Below are positions 8,880-41,200 of a stretch of 58,767 bases of DNA, in pieces. How positions within the stretch are numbered: position 1 is the first letter of the stretch; each line of letters starts with the position of its first letter. Source of the stretch: a virus; IMG/VR virus record IMGVR_UViG_3300021057_000002, positions 1 through 58,767 of that record; one strand, 5' to 3'. The translations under genes and the position numbers were made by a program. The notes beneath the pieces are model-generated. The model was not told the DNA's origin. It saw only the letters and a list, made by a program, of their open reading frames with translations, and made no database searches.

Positions 8880-9181
8880 GCGACCTCGAGCAGTTGATAC
8901 GCAAGCTCGTGACGGAAGCCGTGCGCGAGGAGTTGGCTCGCCAGCAGGAACCCGCCAACGATCAGACGACGTATGTCTCCACAGGTGAAGCCGCTCGCAT
9001 CGCTGGTGTCTCGATCTACACGATCCGCCGCTGGGTGCATGCCGGCGAGCTGACCAAGCACGTCACCAAAGGGCGCATGCGGATCAACCGCGCCGAGCTC
9101 GAGCGCTACCTGGCCTGCGAGGTCGTGCCGATCGATTCGAAGCTGAGCATGGAAGACAGGATCAAGAGGAGGTTTGGATAA
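8876..9181 (+). CDS. xis: Excisionase-type (MerR-like) HTH DNA-binding protein
   Basis: ORF track 101 aa; GTGA overlap. YVSTGEAARIAGVSIYTIRRWVHAGELTKHVTKGRMRINRAELERYL fits the excisionase-family HTH pattern. It lies two genes upstream of int. Confidence 0.7.
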   Translation: MSDLEQLIRKLVTEAVREELARQQEPANDQTTYVSTGEAARIAGVSIYTIRRWVHAGELTKHVTKGRMRINRAELERYLACEVVPIDSKLSMEDRIKRRFG

Positions 9182-9708
9182 TGGGACGAGAACTGCGACG
9201 AGTGCCGCCCAACTGGGATCATCCAAAGAGCGAGCGCGGAGAGTATCGGCCGCTGTATGACCAGACGTTCGCGGAAGCATTCTTGGAGTGGCTTGATGAT
9301 TTCGACCGCGTGCGATGCGGCGAGATGACCGACTTCGAGCGAGAGTGCTACCCGAGTTTTGGCGAGTGGTGCGCCGACCACCATCCGCCGGATCCGAAGT
9401 ACTACGTTCCGTACACCAGCGAGCAAGCAACCTGGTTCCAGATCTTCGAGACCGTATCCGAAGGTACGCCAGTAACGCCGCCGTTCGCGACCAAGGCTGA
9501 ACTCGTCGAGTATCTCGTGCGGCATGGAGACTTCTGGCAACAGAAGAGATGGAACGAAGGCAACCACTTCATGCAGCCAAATCCACCTGGCTACTCACGC
9601 GAATCCGCCGAAGCGTTTGTCGAACAGGGCTGGGCGCCATCGATGGTCATCAGTAACGGCAAGCTCGCCATGGGGATCGATGTTCCGCTCGCGCTGAAGT
9701 CAGAGTAG
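9181..9708 (+). CDS. Hypothetical protein (lower-GC insert between xis and int)
   Basis: ORF track 175 aa; TAATG overlap. My hand count of the first 120 nt gives 69 G+C (about 58 percent), visibly below the flanking genes. Confidence 0.65.
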   Translation: MGRELRRVPPNWDHPKSERGEYRPLYDQTFAEAFLEWLDDFDRVRCGEMTDFERECYPSFGEWCADHHPPDPKYYVPYTSEQATWFQIFETVSEGTPVTPPFATKAELVEYLVRHGDFWQQKRWNEGNHFMQPNPPGYSRESAEAFVEQGWAPSMVISNGKLAMGIDVPLALKSE

Positions 9709-11905: not shown

Positions 11906-12166
11906 CTACTCGCCCACGCACTGAGCCACGGCCCGGGCCCATTCGCGGAGTCCAGCTAGCTCGCGCATGACGTCGGCCAGATCGGACTTGGTGACAACCA
12001 GCGTCAGATTGTTGGGCGCGAAGTACGGGAACCCGACGACGTAGGACGGCTCGGGCAACGCGGGCAGCGAGCACTTCATCGGTTCGACGGTGGTGGAGAT
12101 GTTTCGGATGACCGGCGCTGGCGGCTTCGCGCACCCAACGAGCACCACTATGACGAGCAGCCTCAT
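11906..12166 (-). CDS. Lipoprotein
   Basis: ORF 11906..12340 trimmed to ATG 12166 (4-nt overlap). MRLLVIVVLVGC is a signal peptide plus lipobox. Confidence 0.6.
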   Translation of the reverse strand: MRLLVIVVLVGCAKPPAPVIRNISTTVEPMKCSLPALPEPSYVVGFPYFAPNNLTLVVTKSDLADVMRELAGLREWARAVAQCVGE

Positions 12167-12498
12167 CGCGCACACCCGGCGATCGCTACGTCGAGTTTCC
12201 AGCGCAGATCGGCCGCGTAGCGCTCGAACAGCCGAGCAGTGCACAGGTACAGGTCGCCGAGCGCGACGTAGCCGAAGCATAAGACGTCGATGTCCGGCCG
12301 CGTCGGCAGCGTGCCGACGAAGTCGCGCAGGTTCGCGCACGTTGGTCGCGGTTTGCGGGCTTGAGATCGCGGTGGATGATCCGGATCCGCGTAGCCGGTC
12401 CAGCAGCCGACGCTGATGGCAAATAGCGTTGCCAGTGCGACCCGTCGCACGGAAAGAATACTTGCCAACATGAGTTTAGGCGGACGACTAAATTTCAT
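12163..12498 (-). CDS. Lipoprotein
   Basis: ORF 12163..12612 trimmed to ATG 12498 (4-nt overlap). A hydrophobic leader ends in the lipobox ISVGC. Confidence 0.55.
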   Translation of the reverse strand: MKFSRPPKLMLASILSVRRVALATLFAISVGCWTGYADPDHPPRSQARKPRPTCANLRDFVGTLPTRPDIDVLCFGYVALGDLYLCTARLFERYAADLRWKLDVAIAGCAR

Positions 12499-12776: not shown

Positions 12777-12958
12777 CGCTGCGACCTCCGGGCGATCGCC
12801 TTGAGGCACGTCATGCAGTCGGGAACGTCGGCGGCGATCACGGCGCCATCGGCAGGACGACGGCAGAGCGTTGCCCGGGGTGATTCCGAGTCCTCCGTGA
12901 TCGCGTGGCGCTTGTGGCCTGACCGCAGGCGTACCGTGATTGTCCGAATCGAGATCAT
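12773..12958 (-). CDS. Hypothetical small protein
   Basis: Last 61 codons of ORF 12773..13318 from ATG 12958 (ATGA overlap with the phosphoesterase stop). Contains CMTC. Confidence 0.4.
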   Translation of the reverse strand: MISIRTITVRLRSGHKRHAITEDSESPRATLCRRPADGAVIAADVPDCMTCLKAIARRSQR

Positions 12959-14313
12959 GAAGTTCTCGATTCGCGAACTTTGGCTTCCTGCAACGCGCGG
13001 AGTTGGCGAATGCCGATGATCCGGCGGTTGATCCTCCCCCACTCGCGGTGGAATGTGTCGACGCACATCGTTTGCTGGGAGCGGTAGCCCTTGCCGTGGT
13101 GCCAGCGGTCCTTCGGTGCCAAGGTTGGGAAGGTCTCGACAGTGCAGCCGGGAAGCTCTTTGACCGACGAGTGATGAACGTGGCCGCACAGGATGTGGCG
13201 ATGCTCGGTCTCGCCCCAGTCCTTGGCGCGATCGCAGGCCATGACGCCCATCAGCCGCTCGGCTTTCGCTTCGTCGCCGTGCGTGGTCATGATCAGAACC
13301 TTGCCGAACCGAACCCACTTGAATGGATCGGGTGAGGTGTTGACGGTGACGCGAGGCTCGCGCTCGTAGAACTGCTCGATCGCGTGGGCCATCGCGGTCG
13401 AGGTGTGCCAGTCGTGGTTCCCGGGAACGACGATGTCCTCGACGAGCTCGTGCTTTTCCAGTGCCCGATCGGTGAGTCGCCGCATCGCGCGGATGCCGCT
13501 ACGAAACACCTTGCTCCAACGAGTGTCACCGTCTTGCCGCGTGCCTGCCGTCGTGGTGACGTTGCTGTTGTCGAAGTGAAAGAAGTCGCCGAGCGACAGG
13601 ATCACGGCTCGACGGGCCGGCTCGGCGACGCGGACGAGCTCGTCTACAGCATCGACAAGATCGCGCTCGGCGATCTCAAGGTCGAAGTTATCGCCCGTCT
13701 CCTCATGCCACGCGTGCATCCCCAGGTGCGGATCGCCCATAACGTAGACGGCGAGGAGGTCGTCGTCGGACACTTCGCGGCGCTTGACCGGCTCGGCGAA
13801 ACCACGAAACGGCTCCGTGATCGAAGGCAACGCCGCGAGCAGGCCTTCGAGCCGCTGCTGTTGCGAGACGTTGGTCTTGACCCACTTCAGTCGGACGTTG
13901 CCGTCCTCGTCGTAGAGCGTGGATTCGCCCTTGATGTAGTGGCCGGCCGGAACACTTGGATCGTGCTGCACGACTGCACTTGGTTCGTGTTCGATACCCG
14001 CATTGGGGATGTCGATACCCAGCCTGGGGATATTCGGCAGCGTCGGTTCTTCGCCGTCGAAGTCGTTGCCAAGTTGACCGGATTCTGTTGTCGCGAGGAT
14101 TCCATCAACCTTTTGTTGACCAAATCCCACCCCGTCCCAACGCCCACGCAACTCATCCCAGCCCGGGTAGTTGTAGCGCTGGGCGTTCTTGGTGTACGCC
14201 TCCCACGACGTGCCGAGCCGTTGCGCGAAGTCGTGGCGATCTGTGCTCTCGCGCGCGAGCCGGTGAAGCTCGCCCGACTCCAACAACACACGGAGTCGGT
14301 CTCTGACGGTCAC
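12955..14313 (-). CDS. Calcineurin-like metallophosphoesterase with an N-terminal extension of about 200 aa
   Basis: ORF 12955..14799 trimmed to GTG 14313 (GGAGG upstream, GTGA overlap). Motifs in canonical order: GDPHLG, GDFFHFD, GNHD, TTHGD, CGHVHH. Confidence 0.8.
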   Translation of the reverse strand: MTVRDRLRVLLESGELHRLARESTDRHDFAQRLGTSWEAYTKNAQRYNYPGWDELRGRWDGVGFGQQKVDGILATTESGQLGNDFDGEEPTLPNIPRLGIDIPNAGIEHEPSAVVQHDPSVPAGHYIKGESTLYDEDGNVRLKWVKTNVSQQQRLEGLLAALPSITEPFRGFAEPVKRREVSDDDLLAVYVMGDPHLGMHAWHEETGDNFDLEIAERDLVDAVDELVRVAEPARRAVILSLGDFFHFDNSNVTTTAGTRQDGDTRWSKVFRSGIRAMRRLTDRALEKHELVEDIVVPGNHDWHTSTAMAHAIEQFYEREPRVTVNTSPDPFKWVRFGKVLIMTTHGDEAKAERLMGVMACDRAKDWGETEHRHILCGHVHHSSVKELPGCTVETFPTLAPKDRWHHGKGYRSQQTMCVDTFHREWGRINRRIIGIRQLRALQEAKVRESRTS

Positions 14314-14486
14314 CGCTTGGCCACCTCCGCAGCGTGTGTGATCGCGTCGACGAACTTGGTAGCGTCGCCGATCGATCGAACTACAGCGACGACCACGACC
14401 TCGCCCGGTTGCACGGTCAGGGGTCCGTCGATGCCCAGCGCCGGCAGAACCCGCGCGGATCGCTCCTCCCAGATGCGGAACCTCAC
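14310..14486 (-). CDS. Hypothetical 58-aa protein
   Basis: Not in the ORF track (under 60 aa). I translated it by hand as VRFRIWEERSARVLPALGIDGPLTVQPGEVVVVAVVRSIGDATKFVDAITHAAEVAKR. It has GTGA overlaps at both ends. Confidence 0.35.
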   Translation of the reverse strand: MRFRIWEERSARVLPALGIDGPLTVQPGEVVVVAVVRSIGDATKFVDAITHAAEVAKR

Positions 14487-15364
14487 GGGTTACTCCACGC
14501 GAGCGCGGCAAACGTCTTGGGGCCGACGATCCGATCGGGCTTGAGCCCGTGGCAGCGCTGGAAGTCTTCGACGCAGATCGCCGTGACCTCGTCGAACAGG
14601 CCCGGCGTGCCCTCGCATTGGCCGAGACGGCGCTGGATCCACCGAACCTGGTCGCCCTTGGCTGGCTCGGAGATCGAGTGAAATCGATTGACGTCGACGG
14701 TCGAGGTGAAGCCCGGGAACCCGACCGCGTCACCCTGATACTGGTAGATCCAGTAGTTCGTCGCATCGCCCAGCGGCGGTGGAACGTTGGGGCGAACACC
14801 GACGGGCGGCATCATGCGAGCCTTGGTGCGGATCGGCCACGGCCACGGCTTGGCGAGCCACAGCGGGCTTTCGGTGAATATGGGGGCCGGAAGATCGTCG
14901 AGATCTTCTTTCCACACCCGCGCGCTCGTGTAGATACCCGGCGCGATCCCATAGTGGGCTTTGAGGACCTTCCACGCACGGTGCGTCCAATCGAGCGCCT
15001 CCTGCGCCGAGAACCCGGTGATCTGTCGGCCGCCCGGAAACTCGACATCGAGCATCGGCGGGAAGTCGCGATACCGCTCGAGCGGGACGTTTTTGCAGAA
15101 CACCTCGGCCTGTTGCTCGGGCGAAGGTGGTGGTGACCAGCCGATCTTCGGGTAGCAGAGAAACAGATAGGCCCCGTAGGTCATCCCTGCTTTGCGGATC
15201 GCGTCGCGATACTGGAGCGTTGGATCGACGTAGATCGATCCACCCTTTTGCAAGGGCCTGCCGTAGACACCGCGCACGATCACAAACGATGTCCCGACGT
15301 CCGTGGCCACGGACCAACTCGGCGGGCGGTTGCCGTCGATTGAGGCAAAGTCGATTCCGAGCAC
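14483..15364 (-). CDS. Endolysin: GH25-type muramidase plus C-terminal peptidoglycan-binding domain
   Basis: ORF 14483..15733 trimmed to GTG 15364 (TAGTG junction). LGIDFASIDGN opens the GH25-like domain. The C-terminus GDQVRWIQRRLG...GLKPDRIVGPKTFAAL fits the PG_binding_1 pattern. Confidence 0.85.
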   Translation of the reverse strand: MLGIDFASIDGNRPPSWSVATDVGTSFVIVRGVYGRPLQKGGSIYVDPTLQYRDAIRKAGMTYGAYLFLCYPKIGWSPPPSPEQQAEVFCKNVPLERYRDFPPMLDVEFPGGRQITGFSAQEALDWTHRAWKVLKAHYGIAPGIYTSARVWKEDLDDLPAPIFTESPLWLAKPWPWPIRTKARMMPPVGVRPNVPPPLGDATNYWIYQYQGDAVGFPGFTSTVDVNRFHSISEPAKGDQVRWIQRRLGQCEGTPGLFDEVTAICVEDFQRCHGLKPDRIVGPKTFAALAWSNP

Positions 15365-15765
15365 TAGATCGTTCCCGCCTCGGTCTTGAACTGGGCATCT
15401 CTCCACAGCACCTTGCGGAGAAACGCGAAGCCCTCTGACGCTTCGACCGGCGAGAACACGACGCCGCCGAACGGCTGTTTGCCCGCGAGCACTCCGGCGA
15501 CCAGATCGGCCACGACACAGGCGCCGGTGCGGATCCCGAAGTGCTTGAGCGATGCGCGGACCTGCGACCAGTCGATCTGTCCGTCCTGCCCGCGGGCCGC
15601 TTCGATCACTTCTGCCACCGTCGGCGAGAACTCGTCGATCAACTGCGCGGCCTGTGCCGTGGTGCAGTCCACCAGCGCCACACGCGCGTCCTTGGCCGCG
15701 TCCTTGAGGGCCCCACAGCCCACAACGCCGCACAGCACGAGCATCAGTCCCGTCTTCCCAGTCAT
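15364..15765 (-). CDS. Lipoprotein (lysis-cassette member)
   Basis: ORF 15364..16032 trimmed to ATG 15765. MTGKTGLMLVLCGVVGC is a signal peptide plus lipobox. Confidence 0.6.
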   Translation of the reverse strand: MTGKTGLMLVLCGVVGCGALKDAAKDARVALVDCTTAQAAQLIDEFSPTVAEVIEAARGQDGQIDWSQVRASLKHFGIRTGACVVADLVAGVLAGKQPFGGVVFSPVEASEGFAFLRKVLWRDAQFKTEAGTI

Positions 15766-15802
15766 TCGATCGTCTCTTTCTGCCGGTCGCGCCGGCGACA
15801 AA

Positions 15803-16465
15803 CTACAGAGGGCAGCGATCGGAGAGCCCGGTCCGCACGGCATCCGCGCGCTGTTCGGCGCTGCCGTGGTTCCATGTCTCCGGCGAGCTGCCGGGGAGCA
15901 GTCGATCGTCACCGACGGAAGCCGCGGTTTCGATCGCAGCGGACACGTCGCCCGCGTCGAGCGTTCCGGCTGTTTGCTCGTGCCGCATCCACATGCCGGC
16001 CAAGCAATCCGCTTCGAGCTCGGCCTCGGCAACCGGCCGCATGCCGGGGATCCGTCCGAGAATCTTCTGTACGTGGTGGCCCAACTCGTGGGCGATCACG
16101 TAAGCGCGCGCGAAGTCGGATCCGAACGCGCGGAGGAACGCGAGGTCGAGGTAGATCCGTTCGTCACCCGGGCAGTAGAACGGCCCCGAGGTGGCGATCC
16201 CTCGCCCGCATCGAGTCGACGTGCTCTTGGTGTAGAGCACGACCTTGGCGCGGCGGTAGTTGGGAATCCGCGTCTGCCAGAAGTCCTGGCCACGATCGAG
16301 TGCGGTCGACACCAGGTACACCAGATCCTCGTCGGGATCGGGCTCCTGCACCTGCTGACGGCCGAGCAGAAAGGCGACCACTGCCGCCAACACCGCGGCG
16401 ATGCCGCCGATCGTTCCGCGACGACGGTCGATCAGGTCGCGGCTCTTTTGCCAGACGATCTTCAT
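15803..16465 (-). CDS. YpfJ-like neutral zinc metallopeptidase with an N-terminal TM anchor
   Basis: ORF track 220 aa. TM segment IGGIAAVLAAVVAFLL. FYCPGDERIYLDLAFL, YVIAHELGHHVQ, EADCLAGMW and NHGSAEQR match the family signature from memory. Confidence 0.8.
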   Translation of the reverse strand: MKIVWQKSRDLIDRRRGTIGGIAAVLAAVVAFLLGRQQVQEPDPDEDLVYLVSTALDRGQDFWQTRIPNYRRAKVVLYTKSTSTRCGRGIATSGPFYCPGDERIYLDLAFLRAFGSDFARAYVIAHELGHHVQKILGRIPGMRPVAEAELEADCLAGMWMRHEQTAGTLDAGDVSAAIETAASVGDDRLLPGSSPETWNHGSAEQRADAVRTGLSDRCPL

Positions 16466-16539
16466 TCGTCCTTGCTGGGCCCCAAAAGCTTCACGAGGAG
16501 GTACGTGATGACGAATGTCCCGATGACGAGTGAGATCAC
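16462..16539 (-). CDS. 25-aa single-pass membrane peptide
   Basis: Last 25 codons of ORF 16462..17103, reading VISLVIGTFVITYLLVKLLGPSKDE. GTGA overlap upstream and ATGA overlap downstream. Confidence 0.35.
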   Translation of the reverse strand: MISLVIGTFVITYLLVKLLGPSKDE

Positions 16540-17003
16540 CGCTGGCTCGCTCCCTCGGGCGGCGTTGACGTATGAACCACGCGTGCCTTGGGCAGAACGG
16601 CCGCTGCGAACTTCTGTCCGCTCGCGACCTCGCCGGGTGCCCTCGGGTTGAACAGCATCGCGACCGTTGTCATGACCGCCGTCATCGTTAGGCCAAGTGT
16701 GGGCGTGGCTCCGCGACTCGCGGCCTCGGCCAAGATCGCGGCGCCGCCCAATAGGGCCGCGACGTAAACGCCGCGCTGTCCCTGTGCGAACCACGCGACC
16801 TTTTTGGCCAGTACGGAGAGCACCAGAAACGCGACGATGATCCCCGCCTGAAGCAACTGACCACCGCGCCACAGCCGCTCGACCAGACCGATCGACTCGA
16901 CTGGCTTGGTAAGCGGATCGGGAATGTCGGCGAACGCCGATCCCACCATCAACACCATGAGCACGAGGCCCGTTGCGATCACAGCGAACACCAGACGACG
17001 CAT
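16536..17003 (-). CDS. Multi-pass membrane protein (holin candidate)
   Basis: ORF track 155 aa with about four hydrophobic segments. It sits upstream of the peptidase and endolysin. Confidence 0.55.
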   Translation of the reverse strand: MRRLVFAVIATGLVLMVLMVGSAFADIPDPLTKPVESIGLVERLWRGGQLLQAGIIVAFLVLSVLAKKVAWFAQGQRGVYVAALLGGAAILAEAASRGATPTLGLTMTAVMTTVAMLFNPRAPGEVASGQKFAAAVLPKARVVHTSTPPEGASQR

Positions 17004-17012
17004 GACAGCCTC

Positions 17013-17780
17013 CTACTTGGCGAGCGACTCGACGACCGAGCCGCAGTGCGACGCGAGAAACGAGATCAGGGCGACCAGCGCCAGAATTCCGGCACGCCCC
17101 CACGACAAGAGCTTTGCTTGGCGTCGATCGCCCGCGTCCTGATCGGCGTTGCGACGCTCCAGTGCGGTGATTCGAACGTCGAGCGCGTTGTTGATTGCCT
17201 CAACCGACGTGACTCGAGCGGCGATCCCGCCGACGGATTGGTTCATTCGATCGGACGAATGCTCCAGGCGAGTGATCCGATCGGCGAGATCGTCGAGCCG
17301 CTTGTCGAGCTTTTCGATCCCCGCCATGATCCGCGGCCAGTCGTGATCCCAGAACTGGCCCGTGCGACCCCGATCGCGCTCGACCGTTGACGTCACGGTC
17401 TCGACCCGGGCCATCAGCGACTTGATCGCTGGCATCACGAACTCGCGCAGCTGGGCCGAACTCTCGATAATGTCGCGCCGATAGCCAGCAACCTCGGCCT
17501 CGAGCTTTTCGATCTGCGGTCCGACGTCGCGAACACCCCACACCCGCTCGATCGCCGCGGTGGTTTCACTCACCGAGTCGCGCAGCATCGCGAGCTGTGC
17601 TTTGATCGGCGGCGGGATCGAGTCGTAGCCCTCGATCGTCTCGGGCTTTGGCGGCTCTTGCGGTGGTGGAGTAGCCTCGGGATCGATGTGCACCGGAACG
17701 CGACGCTCGCGGCCGACGAGGGCACGATCGTCGTCGCCCATGACCGAGCGCGCGCGGCGAGTTCGACGCTCGTCGGTCAT
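17013..17780 (-). CDS. Coiled-coil protein with a C-terminal TM anchor
   Basis: ORF 17013..17876 trimmed to ATG 17780 (ATGA overlap). Long heptad-like helices end in the hydrophobic tail GILALVALISFLASHCGSVV. Confidence 0.6.
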   Translation of the reverse strand: MTDERRTRRARSVMGDDDRALVGRERRVPVHIDPEATPPPQEPPKPETIEGYDSIPPPIKAQLAMLRDSVSETTAAIERVWGVRDVGPQIEKLEAEVAGYRRDIIESSAQLREFVMPAIKSLMARVETVTSTVERDRGRTGQFWDHDWPRIMAGIEKLDKRLDDLADRITRLEHSSDRMNQSVGGIAARVTSVEAINNALDVRITALERRNADQDAGDRRQAKLLSWGRAGILALVALISFLASHCGSVVESLAK

Positions 17781-32451: not shown

Positions 32452-32637
32452 GAAAATGCTCCTAAGGGGTGGTGGTCAGTCGGCCGTCATGGCCTCGTCC
32501 GGCTGCCTGGTCTCGCGCCGTGGTTGCGGTGTCTCGAATCGAACGGAAGTGCCGTCGGGCATGAGCCGCGGCCGAGTACCAACTCTCACCGCACAAACCG
32601 CCCGCACGACGTTGCCGTGTCGAGCAGTGGAGTCACG

Positions 32638-38927: not shown

Positions 38928-39314
38928 TCACTTGAACGACTCCGCGTAATTCATGAACTCCTCCGCAAGCTCGATGTAGCGGATTCGCGATGTCTCGCGG
39001 TTTTTCGGCACGACGCCTGATTGACGGAGCACGTCGCGATACAGCCGCGCGCGCTGTAGCAACACGCGAACGCGATCCTCGTACTCGGAGACGTTCGCGA
39101 GCAAGCCATCGCAATCAAAGCGCCGGAGTTGGTGGAGCCCGACGCTGGTACCGCTCAGAACCAACTCGGTGTCGGCACGGTAGATTGCCGTCTGGCCGTG
39201 ACAGCGAACTCCGATGACGATTCGGTCGTCCCACTCGCACCGCTCAACACAAAGTACTTCAACGACTGCCGGGCAATCGTGGCACACGATCTCGGGCAGA
39301 GTGATCGCGCTCAT
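38928..39314 (-). CDS. Cys-rich hypothetical protein (TerL-portal insert)
   Basis: ORF 38928..39350 trimmed to ATG 39314 (ATGA overlap with the TerL stop). Confidence 0.5.
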   Translation of the reverse strand: MSAITLPEIVCHDCPAVVEVLCVERCEWDDRIVIGVRCHGQTAIYRADTELVLSGTSVGLHQLRRFDCDGLLANVSEYEDRVRVLLQRARLYRDVLRQSGVVPKNRETSRIRYIELAEEFMNYAESFK

Positions 39315-41200
39315 CCCCATCCGTAGCCTCCATCGCCAATCTGTTCCCAACCGTCATCGCCGTCGTCCTTGGCCTGCTTGCGCTGTTGCTCGATGTCGTC
39401 GATCCGCTGCTCGAGCTCGCGCTCCTCGGCCGCCATGGCTTCCGGCGATCCGGGCTTGGGCTTGTCCTCGGGTGCGCGATGGAGGTAGTGGCAGAGGTGA
39501 CGGAACGAATAGAGCCCTGCGTCCGAGCAGTCGTTGCCCGGAATTCGGCCGTCGGCGAGTTTGCGGTGCTTGTGCTCCTCGCGCTTCTTTCCGGGCTTCA
39601 CTGGCAAGTAGACCAGGTGGCGATGCTCGTCGAGCAGCGGCGACTCGTGCCGGATGATCACATCGCCAGTGCGCTCGACGTGGCCGCGGTAGTGGACGCG
39701 ATACTTGCGGATATCGCCCGCCATGAACTCGCGCCAGGTGTCTTTCGAGGTCTTGTCGGCATCGTCGATCGGAAGGCCCGTGCGCTCGCGCCAGCCCTGG
39801 AGATTCGCCCCTGCCTGCCCGCCCGGATCGCCGACAAACACAGCGACTGCGTCGATCGCGTCCCACAAAGCCTTGCAGTAGTCGCGTTGGTCATCCGGCA
39901 ACACGCGCGTCTGTTTCCAGCTGAACATCTCGTAGATGTCTGGGAGATCCGGTGTGAAGGCCCACACGACCACCGCGAACGGATCGGGCATGTACCCGAA
40001 GTCGGCGCCGATGGCGTAGAGCCAGTGATACGGACGTCGGCGACGGCTGCGCGGCAGATCCTCGACGGCGCGCTCGTGATCGTACCAAGGTGGATGCTCG
40101 GGGTTGATCGGGTTGGGCCGAAGCCGCTGGGGCGCAAAGATCAGCGCGTGCTCGGGCACGACGTGCACCGGGTAGACGTGGCTTGAGTCGCCCTTGACCC
40201 ACTTGGCGAACCACTCGCGCAAGAGATCCGGATCGTCCGGCTTGAGATTGTTCTCGCGGATGTGCTTGCCCGCGGTGTTCTCCCACCGGATCTCGACCGC
40301 AGCCTGCTGGGCAGTTTCGAGGTCGGCGTACGGCCCGTGCTCGATCTTCAGGTTGTCGACGACGACGATCTGACCGTCCTTGGTCACCACGTGGCCAAAG
40401 AACGGGTTATCGACGACAGCAAACGCGTGGATCTCCCAGCCGGCGAGCGGCTCCTCTTCGTTGGAGATCTCGTAGAACATGCCCGAGCAATCGCGACCGG
40501 GCGTTCCGCTGATCCAGACCTCACCGTCGAAGTCGGTGATCGAACCAAGCACGACGGCCTTGTAGAAAGCCCAGAGCTCCTTGAAGTCCTGGGCCTCGTC
40601 GACCCAGAACACGTGCTTGGCATTGCCGCGCTTCTTGCGGTGGTCGTTGACGTTATCCGCGCCGAACAACTCGATTTGCGAGTTGTTCGAGAAATTGAGC
40701 GCGTGATCGGCTTCGCGCACCTCGACCAACACGCCACCGAGATCCCAGGTGTCTACACCCGGACCTGGAACATACGTCCCGAATTGCTCGATGACGTCGA
40801 CGATGCCGGTCTGCGTATCGTTGCGCCATGCTCGTGCTCGTGCCTCCACCAGCGTCGAGTGCGCGATCGTCGAGCGAAACCCGGGCGTCTCGATCGCACG
40901 TGCCAGTAGCTCGCGGCACCCGCCGACCGTGGCACCCGCGCGGCGAGTCTTGAGCGTCACGCGGCGCTTGTGCTTGCTCGTGCAGAACGCGCCCTGCTTT
41001 GGGTGGTCGTCGAAGATCGCGCGCAACTTGACGGCCATCGCTCGCGCCTCGTCGATCTTCGCGGCTACGACCTCATCGGGTGGTCGGCGACGCGCGAGCT
41101 CGGCAAGAAACGAGGCGACCGCTTCGGGACCTGCGCGCATGACGGCTAGGACGGGCAGAACCGCAAGCGCGAGCGCCAGTGTGCTCGCGGCACGTATCAC
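39311..41200 (-). CDS. terL: Terminase large subunit
   Basis: ORF track 629 aa. It has Walker-A-like KTRRAGATVGG, Walker-B HVFWVDEAQD, and nuclease-domain acidic motifs YAIGADFGY and VFVGDPGG. The GTG 41200 start (GTGA overlap) gives an oddly hydrophobic first 20 aa; ATG 41140 is the alternative. Confidence 0.9.
   Translation of the reverse strand: MIRAASTLALALAVLPVLAVMRAGPEAVASFLAELARRRPPDEVVAAKIDEARAMAVKLRAIFDDHPKQGAFCTSKHKRRVTLKTRRAGATVGGCRELLARAIETPGFRSTIAHSTLVEARARAWRNDTQTGIVDVIEQFGTYVPGPGVDTWDLGGVLVEVREADHALNFSNNSQIELFGADNVNDHRKKRGNAKHVFWVDEAQDFKELWAFYKAVVLGSITDFDGEVWISGTPGRDCSGMFYEISNEEEPLAGWEIHAFAVVDNPFFGHVVTKDGQIVVVDNLKIEHGPYADLETAQQAAVEIRWENTAGKHIRENNLKPDDPDLLREWFAKWVKGDSSHVYPVHVVPEHALIFAPQRLRPNPINPEHPPWYDHERAVEDLPRSRRRRPYHWLYAIGADFGYMPDPFAVVVWAFTPDLPDIYEMFSWKQTRVLPDDQRDYCKALWDAIDAVAVFVGDPGGQAGANLQGWRERTGLPIDDADKTSKDTWREFMAGDIRKYRVHYRGHVERTGDVIIRHESPLLDEHRHLVYLPVKPGKKREEHKHRKLADGRIPGNDCSDAGLYSFRHLCHYLHRAPEDKPKPGSPEAMAAEERELEQRIDDIEQQRKQAKDDGDDGWEQIGDGGYGWG

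What the first reader, a model, noticed from the sequence alone, without database searches (positions are those of the whole stretch)
14483..17780. Atypical lysis cassette: membrane-anchored YpfJ-like zinc peptidase and a 25-aa TM peptide between holin candidate and endolysin, with no canonical spanin pair
Seen, in transcription order:
- a 255-aa coiled-coil protein with only a C-terminal TM anchor (17013..17780);
- a 155-aa protein with about four TM segments (16536..17003);
- a 25-aa TM peptide coupled at both ends (16462..16539);
- a TM-anchored protein with FYCPGDERIYLD and HELGHH (15803..16465);
- a lipoprotein (15364..15765);
- a GH25 plus PG-binding endolysin (14483..15364).
Established: Gram-negative phage lysis normally uses a holin, an endolysin and an i-spanin/o-spanin pair or a u-spanin. 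YpfJ-family proteins are cellular zinc peptidases of unclear function. Inference: a phage-borne, membrane-tethered YpfJ-like peptidase inside a lysis cassette is unusual. It may be a second cell-wall or lipoprotein-link hydrolase, or a processing enzyme. The tail-anchored coiled coil plus the lipoprotein could be a spanin-like pair with reversed membrane topology. The 25-aa peptide may modulate the holin.
Basis: partly seen in the sequence, partly recalled or inferred. Interest (0 to 1): 0.65.

Follow-up and report, generated by a model that had tools for sequence, protein, structure and literature searches.

The report
Phage lysis cassette carrying membrane peptidase
An uncultured soil phage carries, inside its cell-bursting gene cluster, a membrane-anchored zinc protease and a previously unnamed lipoprotein that other phages fuse directly to their holins; this arrangement recurs in related phages, but the claim that the phage lacks the usual outer-membrane-breaking gene pair (spanins) is probably wrong.

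Summary
All six ORFs are real, with the stated features (PF04228 peptidase E 2e-40; GH25+PG_binding_1 endolysin; lipobox Cys17; tail-anchored coiled coil; 25-aa TM micro-ORF). The window is a complete-looking 58.8-kb metagenomic phage with no cultured relatives.

The peptidase belongs to a phage-only clade of compact (about 210-230 aa) YpfJ-like enzymes. They keep HExxH, the Glu ligand and four invariant Cys.

- In 5 of 12 sampled loci the same module recurs (coiled coil, holin-like protein, peptidase, lipoprotein), with at least two verified endolysin types.
- In 6 of 12 the peptidase lies in the tail module, upstream of large exported lipoproteins.
- The lipoprotein defines an unnamed family (188 clusters). 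More than half of its top hits sit C-terminal to multi-TM extensions, many of them holin-like, so it is a holin partner, not an o-spanin.
- The coiled coil is XhlA-like and cytoplasmic, not a reversed spanin.
- A probable i/o-spanin pair lies at 11906-12498.

Verdict: a genuine lysis cassette, a new variant of a known kind. The peptidase's substrate and its need for lysis are unproven.

The parts
17013..17780 (-). cc255: 255-aa tail-anchored coiled-coil protein, XhlA-like. Charged, Pro-rich N-terminus, long helices, single C-terminal TM; predicted cytoplasmic.
   Evidence: Searches give the ORF and the TM at residues 223-254. Pfam XhlA matches at E 2e-4, below its cut-off. The homolog L088_6720 hits phrog_1193 'hemolysin' at 5.6e-5. 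Homologs occupy the same position in L172 (33% identity, E 1e-32), L090 and L088.
16536..17003 (-). tm155: holin-like membrane protein with a cleavable-looking signal and about three TM segments.
   Evidence: One search gives the hydropathy. A homolog lies in L087 (44% identity). Eight representative proteins fuse a tm155-type N-terminal part to the lipo133 domain. It has no Pfam or PHROG family.
16462..16539 (-). pep25: 25-aa single-TM micro-ORF, coupled to both neighbours by 4-nt overlaps.
   Evidence: Searches give the overlaps, the RBS, GC3 of 0.81, and a hydrophobicity found in only 0.1% of six-frame windows. An analogous uncalled 30-aa TM ORF lies at the same position in L090. No sequence homolog was found.
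15803..16465 (-). zn220: N-terminally membrane-anchored, extracytoplasmic zinc metallopeptidase of the YpfJ family (PF04228), compact phage clade.
   Evidence: Pfam matches at 2.1e-40. NCBIfam NF050010 scores 175 bits, below its equivalog cut-off of 250. H126, E127, H130, E149 and C86/C98/C154/C218 are invariant. The AF2 model has pLDDT 91.6. The fold is M48-like with only weak matches.
15364..15765 (-). lipo133: lipoprotein (Cys17) with a helical extracytoplasmic domain of a new, unnamed holin-associated family.
   Evidence: One search gives the lipobox. The family has 188 clusters. Conserved motifs are the lipobox Cys, VVDCT, DGxxDW and GxCVLA. 87 of the top 150 hits are longer than 170 aa, with the domain C-terminal to TM-containing extensions; at least 34 of these extensions are homologous to holin-like genes of these loci. 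AF2 pLDDT is 86, and no PDB fold match was found.
14483..15364 (-). lys293: cytoplasmic endolysin, a GH25 muramidase with a C-terminal PG_binding_1 domain. It has no signal or SAR segment.
12163..12498 (-). g111: candidate i-spanin. It has an N-terminal TM (residues 9-32) and an 80-aa Cys-rich periplasmic part. It is atypical, with no clear coiled coil.
11906..12166 (-). g86: candidate o-spanin. Signal MRLLVIVVLVGC, a Pro-rich mature N-terminus and two periplasmic Cys. Its start overlaps g111's stop (ATGA).
   Evidence: A homolog in L006 (36% identity, E 2e-5) begins inside the 3' part of an N-terminal-TM helical 153-aa gene, 0.7 kb upstream of a GH25 gene.

Best explanation
The region is a genuine late-operon lysis cassette of an uncultured soil phage whose host probably has two membranes.

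Shown:
- cc255 is an XhlA-like, tail-anchored cytoplasmic coiled coil.
- tm155 is a holin-like membrane protein.
- lipo133 belongs to a lipoprotein family that many phages fuse to, or place next to, their holins. Its domain therefore works at the outer face of the cytoplasmic membrane together with the holin.
- lys293 is a signal-less GH25 endolysin, so it needs a membrane lesion to reach the wall.
- zn220 keeps every catalytic residue and four invariant cysteines. This fits an active, disulfide-stabilised protease anchored N-in with its catalytic domain outside the cytoplasm.

Inferred:
- The holin-like protein, modulated by cc255, pep25 and lipo133, releases the endolysin.
- g111/g86 at 11906-12498 then break the outer membrane.
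- The peptidase is an accessory lysis enzyme that cuts a protein, not peptidoglycan, at the periplasmic face of the inner membrane.

My preferred substrate is the membrane-anchored protein encoded right after it: lipo133 here, and large lipoproteins in the tail-module relatives. Cutting it would free or remove it near the time of lysis. A host envelope tether is the next candidate.
For: - The module coiled coil, holin-like protein, peptidase, lipo133-type lipoprotein recurs in L087, L088, L090 and L172.
- The gene at the endolysin position changes between these loci: GH25+PGB in the window, Amidase_2 in L172, and unannotated Cys/His proteins in L087, L088 and L090.
- The holin-like gene also changes: tm155-type, phrog_9987-type, or L172_719-type.
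- In L006 the peptidase abuts a short tail-anchored coiled coil and a holin-like gene, upstream of a GH25 gene.
- An unrelated cultured phage, Rhodococcus phage Weasels2, has a PF04228-like, N-terminally anchored peptidase two genes upstream of LysA.
- Catalytic and Cys residues are invariant.
- Klebsiella YpfJ is a DTT-sensitive caseinolytic zinc protease (PMC3269727).
- In 11 of 12 loci the gene directly after the peptidase encodes a lipoprotein or signal-anchored protein. It overlaps the peptidase's stop in 7 of these 11.
- Fusions link lipo133 to holins with consistent topology.
Against: - No experiment exists, and no substrate is known for any YpfJ-family enzyme.
- Half of the sampled phage-clade peptidases (6 of 12) lie in tail or baseplate modules, not beside lysis genes. 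The gene therefore behaves partly as a mobile unit.
- No sampled lipo133-family member is fused to the peptidase, and in L089 the lipoprotein lies in a separate cassette from it.
- These phages encode many anchored proteins in this region, so adjacency to one is weaker evidence than it looks.
- The three ~200-aa proteins at the endolysin position in L087, L088 and L090 have no family or PDB match.
- Host identity is inferred only from the nearest cellular homologs (Acidobacteriota, Gemmatimonadota, Myxococcota), one Kofleriaceae-labelled TerL homolog, and the spanin-like pair.
Confidence: 0.5

Rival explanations
1. The peptidase is a mobile, late-expressed accessory gene that is not needed for lysis. 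It would remodel or protect the envelope, for example by destroying a receptor or entry factor so that progeny are not lost on debris, or by excluding superinfecting phages. On this reading it merely sits at permissive module boundaries (tail/lysis).
For: - Six of 12 loci carry it inside tail or baseplate modules: after the tape measure in L173, after Baseplate_J in L089, and before fibre-like genes in L002-L004 and L174.
- The phage clade is monophyletic but occupies different genomic contexts.
- Known exclusion lipoproteins such as T5 Llp and Cor lie beside receptor-binding genes (own knowledge).
Against: - In the window it is wedged by 4-nt overlaps (via pep25) between a holin-like gene and that gene family's partner lipoprotein.
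- This interleaved order persists at 55-59% peptidase identity and 28-43% identity of the neighbours.
- There is an independent adjacency to LysA in Rhodococcus phages.
- There is no match to PADLOC defence models.
- Expression appears tied to the late operon, which is poor timing for exclusion in a lysogen.
Confidence: 0.28
2. The peptidase is a second cell-wall hydrolase or a cleaver of the Lpp-peptidoglycan link. The tail-anchored coiled coil plus the lipoprotein form a spanin-like pair of reversed topology that replaces missing spanins.
For: - The peptidase faces the periplasm, and lysis cassettes of other phages do carry second envelope enzymes, such as LysB and LysZ (bioRxiv 10.1101/2025.06.24.661397).
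- No spanin pair lies inside 14483-17780.
Against: - cc255 lacks any export signal, and the charges flanking its TM put the coiled coil in the cytoplasm. It resembles XhlA.
- lipo133 is a globular helical domain that other phages fuse to holins. It is not a Pro-rich o-spanin.
- A better spanin pair exists at 11906-12498.
- The peptidase fold matches M48-like protein-cleaving zincins only, and no known peptidoglycan peptidase.
- Relatives degrade casein and elastin.
Confidence: 0.07
3. The peptidase is a timing device. lipo133 acts as an antiholin-like brake bound to the holin-like protein's periplasmic face, and zn220 degrades it to set the moment of triggering. pep25 may tether or tune this.
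For: - The gene order is holin-like, pep25, peptidase, lipo133, with coupling.
- lipo133-holin fusions prove a functional link.
- T4 antiholin RI is controlled by periplasmic proteolysis (own knowledge).
- A second micro-TM ORF lies at the same place in L090.
Against: - No sampled lipo133 homolog is fused to the peptidase.
- Fused versions cannot be simple diffusible inhibitors.
- The tail-module peptidases pair with quite different lipoproteins.
Confidence: 0.15

Closest known systems
YpfJ / KPN_02809 family neutral zinc metallopeptidases (Pfam PF04228, NCBIfam NF050010)
   Same: Both have the N-terminal SxxV/IxDRR motif, one TM segment and an extracytoplasmic HExGHH...ExxADC catalytic domain with four conserved Cys. 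The Klebsiella enzyme is an active zinc protease inhibited by DTT.
   Different: The phage clade is 60-80 residues shorter: it lacks the Gly-rich linker and has shortened loops. It is 39-50% identical to the nearest cellular proteins and scores below the NCBIfam equivalog cut-off (175 against 250 bits). It is phage-borne in late operons, whereas a crude scan found no conserved lipoprotein gene downstream of the cellular genes.
PBSX-type lysis cassette xhlA-xhlB-xlyA of Bacillus subtilis (own knowledge of the system; PF10779 XhlA)
   Same: A coiled-coil protein with a C-terminal membrane anchor is encoded just upstream of the holin and endolysin genes. There are weak matches to XhlA/hemolysin models.
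   Different: cc255 is three times longer and has a Pro-rich N-terminal extension. The matches are below family thresholds. The host is probably a diderm, and extra genes (pep25, peptidase, lipoprotein) sit between the holin and the endolysin.
Two-component spanins (Rz/Rz1 type; Kongari et al. 2018, PMC6139136)
   Same: In g111/g86, an N-terminal-TM protein gene is followed, with a 4-nt overlap, by a small Pro-rich lipoprotein gene carrying periplasmic Cys. The o-spanin-like homolog in L006 has the overlapped architecture. That paper records o-spanin families that span the overlapped and separated architectures.
   Different: The pair lies 2.3 kb from the endolysin, behind an SbcD-like nuclease gene. 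g111 lacks an obvious periplasmic coiled coil. Neither gene matches any spanin family model.
Extra lysis-cassette envelope factors of actinophages: LysB esterase and LysZ/LysY (McKitterick et al., bioRxiv 10.1101/2025.06.24.661397)
   Same: These set a precedent for additional membrane or envelope proteins in lysis cassettes beyond holin, endolysin and spanin. LysY is a multi-TM protein encoded next to a helical partner.
   Different: LysZ has an N-proximal TM and no enzymatic motif. None of these factors is a protease. There is no sequence relationship to them.
M48 peptidases (BepA, HtpX, Ste24; PDB 3c37, 6ait)
   Same: These are the best structural neighbours of the zn220 model. BepA is a periplasmic protease acting on envelope proteins.
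   Different: The similarity is weak (E 5e-3 at best, TM-score at most 0.48). There is no TPR domain and no multi-pass membrane domain.

Membership tests
PF04228 / YpfJ-family zinc metallopeptidase | Significant match to the family model above Pfam's gathering score | tested here: met
   139.5 bits against a cut-off of 23.2, E 2.1e-40, covering profile positions 82-280 of 290.
PF04228 / YpfJ-family zinc metallopeptidase | HExxH zinc motif plus a downstream Glu ligand and conserved Cys pairs | tested here: met
   H126, E127, H130, E149, C86, C98, C154 and C218 are invariant in 34 phage and cellular sequences.
PF04228 / YpfJ-family zinc metallopeptidase | Equivalog of KPN_02809/YpfJ (NCBIfam NF050010 cut-off) | tested here: not met
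   175.4 bits against a cut-off of 250. It is a relative forming a separate compact phage clade.
PF04228 / YpfJ-family zinc metallopeptidase | Proteolytic activity | not testable with these tools
   Activity is shown only for Klebsiella YpfJ, on casein (PMC3269727).
Holin | Small membrane protein with at least one TM, encoded next to the endolysin | tested here: met
   tm155 has about three TM segments after a signal-like segment and lies in the cassette.
Holin | Match to a known holin family | tested here: not met
   tm155 has no Pfam, PHROG or NCBIfam hit. The positional equivalents in L088 and L089 do hit holin PHROGs: phrog_9987 at 1.5e-8 for L089_13947.
Holin | Lethal membrane permeabilisation that releases the endolysin | not testable with these tools
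   Needs expression experiments.
XhlA (PF10779) | Match above the family's gathering score | tested here: not met
   cc255 scores 21.9 bits against 34.7 (E 2e-4). The homolog L088_6720 hits phrog_1193 'hemolysin' at E 5.6e-5.
XhlA (PF10779) | Coiled coil followed by a C-terminal TM, encoded upstream of the holin and endolysin | tested here: met
   (alignment of five homologs), and the gene order.
Two-component spanin: o-spanin (g86) | Lipoprotein signal with a lipobox, a small mature protein, and periplasmic Cys | tested here: met
   The signal is MRLLVIVVLVGC. The mature protein is 74 aa with 9 Pro and carries Cys32 and Cys83.
Two-component spanin: o-spanin (g86) | Gene embedded in, overlapping or directly following an i-spanin gene | tested here: met
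   There is an ATGA overlap with g111. The L006 homolog starts 120-155 nt inside L006_8651.
Two-component spanin: i-spanin (g111) | N-terminal TM with a periplasmic coiled-coil domain | tested here: inconclusive
   A TM lies at residues 9-32, but the 80-aa periplasmic part is Cys-rich without an evident coiled coil, and the SVGC motif could make it a lipoprotein. L006_8651 is a typical N-terminal-TM, charged helical protein.
   cc255 has no N-terminal signal or TM, and positive charges precede its C-terminal TM.
GH25 endolysin | GH25 catalytic domain and a wall-binding domain above the Pfam cut-offs | tested here: met
   GH25 scores 50.1 bits against 27, and PG_binding_1 scores 33.9 against 23. 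Endolysin PHROGs also match.

The most novel reading that the evidence does not exclude
Lysis timing in this phage group is set by a phage-encoded protease. On this reading the lipo133 domain is a brake, or a co-factor, bound to the holin's periplasmic face, and the membrane-anchored YpfJ-like peptidase cuts it or its anchor to fire or complete lysis. This would be a protease-gated holin system. It would also give the first physiological substrate for the widespread YpfJ family.
Probability: 0.15. Interest if true: 0.8.

Novelty: new variant of a known kind. Interest (0 to 1): 0.55.

Why it matters
- YpfJ-family peptidases are widespread in bacteria, and no substrate is known for them. A phage clade that keeps one in a four-to-six-gene module offers a small, testable system for finding what these enzymes cut.
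- The lipo133 family (188 clusters, no Pfam entry, no structural neighbour) appears to be an unrecognised holin partner domain. It is often fused to holin-like proteins. This widens the parts list of phage lysis beyond holin, endolysin and spanin, in hosts (probably Acidobacteriota, Gemmatimonadota or Myxococcota) whose phage biology is almost unknown.
- The work also shows that a 'spaninless' call made from the lysis cassette alone can be wrong.

Tried and rejected
- Nucleotide search against 50,697 phage genomes found no match. TerL and portal protein searches found no useful cultured relative.
- The IMG/VR scan for the peptidase clade confirmed no relative. The metagenome and genome scans returned only cellular 270-295-aa YpfJ proteins at 39-50% identity, with no prophage copies.
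- The word-index homolog search for lipo133 found only the protein itself. The exhaustive HMMER search was needed.
- PDB sequence searches for the peptidase family and for the ~200-aa proteins at the endolysin position in L088 and L090 found nothing. Those proteins stay unverified.
- Foldseek with the lipo133 model found no credible neighbour. Foldseek with the peptidase found only weak M48, SprT or IrrE-like zincins.
- PADLOC defence models gave no hit for any cassette protein.
- The promoter and terminator scan gave nothing above shuffles.
- g86 has no cultured-phage homolog.
- A crude scan of 80 cellular loci found no conserved downstream lipoprotein next to cellular ypfJ.
- I rejected the 'Acinetobacter phage MD-2021a' hit as bacterial chromosome.
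- I rejected lipo133 as the o-spanin and cc255 as an i-spanin, for the reasons given in the full report.

Full report
**What the window is**

The window matches ENA metagenome contig ERZ27252493:k141_697991, which is 58,855 bp. GC content is 64%. It encodes a large terminase and a portal protein. It has no nucleotide match among 50,697 phage genomes and essentially no protein-level cultured relative.

TerL has hundreds of metagenomic relatives on contigs of 55-63 kb. One of them is labelled Kofleriaceae. From about 54 kb down to 11.9 kb the genes run on the minus strand: packaging, head, tail, and then the region of interest.

All six ORFs exist as described. The assembly's own gene caller found five of them.

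- The peptidase matches PF04228 at E 2e-40.
- The last gene is GH25 plus PG_binding_1.
- The lipoprotein has lipobox VVGC with Cys17.
- The coiled-coil protein has a single C-terminal TM.
- tm155 has a signal-like N-terminus and about three TM segments.
- The uncalled 25-aa ORF is bracketed exactly by GTGA and ATGA overlaps and has a GGGAG motif 11 nt upstream. Its GC3 is 0.81. Its hydrophobicity is reached by only 0.1% of 25-aa windows in all six frames of this window.

**The peptidase belongs to a phage-specific clade**

The homolog search found about 57 clusters of 208-233-aa proteins. They are 47-59% identical to zn220 over their full length and lie on phage-sized contigs. Behind them come thousands of 270-295-aa cellular proteins.

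The nearest cellular proteins are 39-50% identical. They come from Acidobacteriota, Gemmatimonadota and Myxococcota.

The alignments show invariant H126, E127, H130 and E149 and four invariant Cys. They also show a family-wide N-terminal SxxV/IxDRR motif before the TM.

NCBIfam's YpfJ equivalog model scores 175 bits against a cut-off of 250. The protein is therefore a relative, not an equivalog.

The AF2 model is confident (pLDDT 91.6). Its only structural neighbours are weak M48-type zincins: PDB 3c37, BepA, and viral M48 or IrrE-like proteins. No family member has a solved structure.

The characterised relatives cleave proteins:
- Klebsiella YpfJ cleaves casein and is DTT-sensitive (PMC3269727).
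- A remote Flavobacterium homolog degrades elastin (PMC6414381).

A peptidoglycan-cutting role is therefore unlikely.

**Genomic context across twelve loci**

I recovered the neighbourhoods of eleven other clade members and analysed them with scripts.

| Loci | Arrangement |
|---|---|
| Window, L087, L088, L090, L172 | Tail-anchored coiled coil, holin-like protein, peptidase, lipo133-type lipoprotein, then the gene at the endolysin position |
| L006 | Peptidase abuts a short tail-anchored coiled coil and a holin-like gene; a GH25 gene lies 3.3 kb downstream |
| L002, L003, L004, L089, L173, L174 | Peptidase sits in the tail or baseplate module |

In the first group the gene at the endolysin position differs. 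It is GH25+PGB in the window and Amidase_2 in L172. In L087, L088 and L090 it is an unannotated ~200-aa Cys/His protein, which I could not verify as an endolysin. The holin-like gene also differs in type. This kind of replacement is what a real lysis cassette looks like.

In the tail-module group the peptidase's stop overlaps the start of a large Gly-rich protein. These proteins carry textbook lipoprotein signals (LFAC, AAGC, LTAC, LAAC) or a signal anchor. They share a DQARGF/GGGP motif after the anchor.

In an NJ tree without bootstraps, five of the six tail-type loci form one subclade. The lysis-linked loci form two others, and tail-type L089 groups with the window.

There is also an independent case. 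The only cultured phages with such a gene, Rhodococcus cluster CB, place it two genes upstream of LysA. The paper describing those phages does not comment on this (PMC13313380).

**The lipoprotein is a holin partner**

An exhaustive HMMER search found 188 clusters of lipo133 relatives. The family has no Pfam entry. It has a nearly invariant lipobox Cys and the motifs VVDCT, DGxxDW and GxCVLA.

Of the top 150 hits, 87 are longer than 170 aa. In those I inspected, the domain sits C-terminal to a multi-TM part. At least 34 of these N-terminal parts are homologous to the holin-like genes of our loci:
- tm155 type: 8.
- phrog_9987 holin type: about 23. L089_13947 hits that PHROG at 1.5e-8.
- L172_719/L006_7410 type: 3.

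The topology is self-consistent. In the fusions, the lipoprotein's signal segment becomes the last TM and places the domain outside the cytoplasm. None of the 150 is fused to the peptidase.

The domain model is confident (pLDDT above 90 for residues 30-133) and has no PDB neighbour.

In L089 a marginal homolog (E 6e-4) sits in a separate cassette of holin, lipoprotein, a 243-aa protein and an M23 peptidase, away from the YpfJ-like peptidase.

**The coiled coil is not a spanin**

cc255 has no export signal, and positive charges precede its C-terminal TM. The helical part is therefore cytoplasmic. It matches Pfam XhlA weakly (E 2e-4), and its homolog matches phrog_1193 'hemolysin' (5.6e-5). Five homologs align with shared motifs. 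This resembles the PBSX xhlA-holin-endolysin layout.

**A spanin pair probably exists elsewhere in the window**

A window-wide lipobox scan found g86 at 11906-12166. Its signal is MRLLVIVVLVGC, followed by AKPPAP.... It is coupled by ATGA to g111, which has an N-terminal TM.

A g86 homolog in L006 begins inside the 3' part of a typical N-terminal-TM, charged-helix protein. That gene lies 0.7 kb upstream of the GH25 gene. This is the overlapped spanin architecture. Kongari et al. document o-spanin families that span both the overlapped and the separated forms (PMC6139136).

g111 itself is atypical, so the pair is 'probable', not proven. Its presence supports a diderm host.

**The micro-ORF**

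L090 has an uncalled 30-aa single-TM ORF (GC3 0.87). It lies in the same slot, between the holin-like gene and the peptidase, and is coupled at both ends. It shares no sequence similarity with pep25. The gene class seems real, but its role is unknown.

**Mechanism**

Shown: the parts, their predicted topology, conservation of the module, and the holin-lipoprotein link.

Inferred: the canonical release of the endolysin by a holin, followed by spanin action, with the peptidase as an accessory protease at the periplasmic face.

I put about 0.5 on a lysis role. The preferred substrate is the anchored protein encoded downstream, and a host envelope protein is second. I put about 0.28 on a non-lysis accessory role, because half of the clade sits in tail modules.

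**Novelty**

I found no paper that links YpfJ-like or PF04228 peptidases to phage lysis. This is a new variant of a known kind of system. It comes with a new holin-associated domain family as a by-product.

Noticed in passing
window 11906-12498 (-): g111 (N-terminal TM, Cys-rich) and g86 (lipobox LVGC, Pro-rich lipoprotein) are coupled by ATGA at the far end of the late gene block. They are a probable separated i/o-spanin pair. The g86 homolog in L006 (about 8958-9278) starts inside an i-spanin-like gene.
   Followed up: partly
L002:6651-8549, L003:6654-7814, L004:6633-12636, L089:8657-9613, L173:7615-8988, L174:7642-9207: In relatives where the peptidase is in the tail module, its stop overlaps the start of large Gly/Thr-rich, fibre-like proteins. 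These carry textbook lipoprotein signals or signal anchors and a shared DQARGF/GGGP motif after the anchor. L173:9241-12072, a pectate-lyase-like protein, is also N-anchored. Exported 'fibres' in a tail module are unexplained.
   Followed up: partly
L090:7909-8001: An uncalled 30-aa single-TM ORF (MRSIARHVVALVVLVLFLVWLVRKPRARRS) lies between the holin-like gene and the peptidase. It is coupled at both ends and mirrors pep25 in position but not in sequence.
   Followed up: partly
window 15803-16465 (-), residues 1-14 of zn220: In the AF2 model the first 10 residues have pLDDT 97, and residues 11-13 form a strand. These belong to the family-wide SxxV/IxDRR motif. The model suggests the N-terminus docks on the catalytic domain although a TM helix lies between them. 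This could reflect autoinhibition or a topology puzzle.
   Followed up: no
window 12955-14486 (-): An SbcD-like DNA repair exonuclease (phrog_704, E 7e-101) and a 58-aa ORF are translationally coupled to the endolysin gene. They separate the lysis cassette from the spanin-like pair.
   Followed up: partly
window 39311-41200 (-) and its homologs P0321, P0362, P0367: TerL defines a large uncultured phage group with many 55-63 kb contigs; one homolog is labelled Kofleriaceae. Three homologs of 741-927 aa carry Hint/intein Pfam domains.
   Followed up: no
window 32521-32593 (-): A single tRNA-Met (CAT) gene lies inside the structural gene block.
   Followed up: no
L176 (CAKLQH020000002.1 245953-254532): The INPHARED record 'Acinetobacter phage MD-2021a' carries sucCD, trpS and a cellular ypfJ-like gene. 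This stretch is bacterial chromosome, not phage.
   Followed up: yes
P0124 and P0025 (both list a 30,669-bp JGI contig): A tm155-lipo133 fusion protein and a phage-clade peptidase appear to lie on the same contig. If so, the peptidase and the holin-lipoprotein unit co-occur there without being interleaved. I could not inspect the contig because the look-ups were exhausted.
   Followed up: no
L175 (Rhodococcus phage Weasels2, NC_041887: 26729-29557): The zinc metallopeptidase gp65 (N-terminal TM, PF04228-like) lies two genes upstream of LysA gp67, and an esterase (LysB-like) gp71 lies nearby. The describing paper does not discuss this adjacency.
   Followed up: partly
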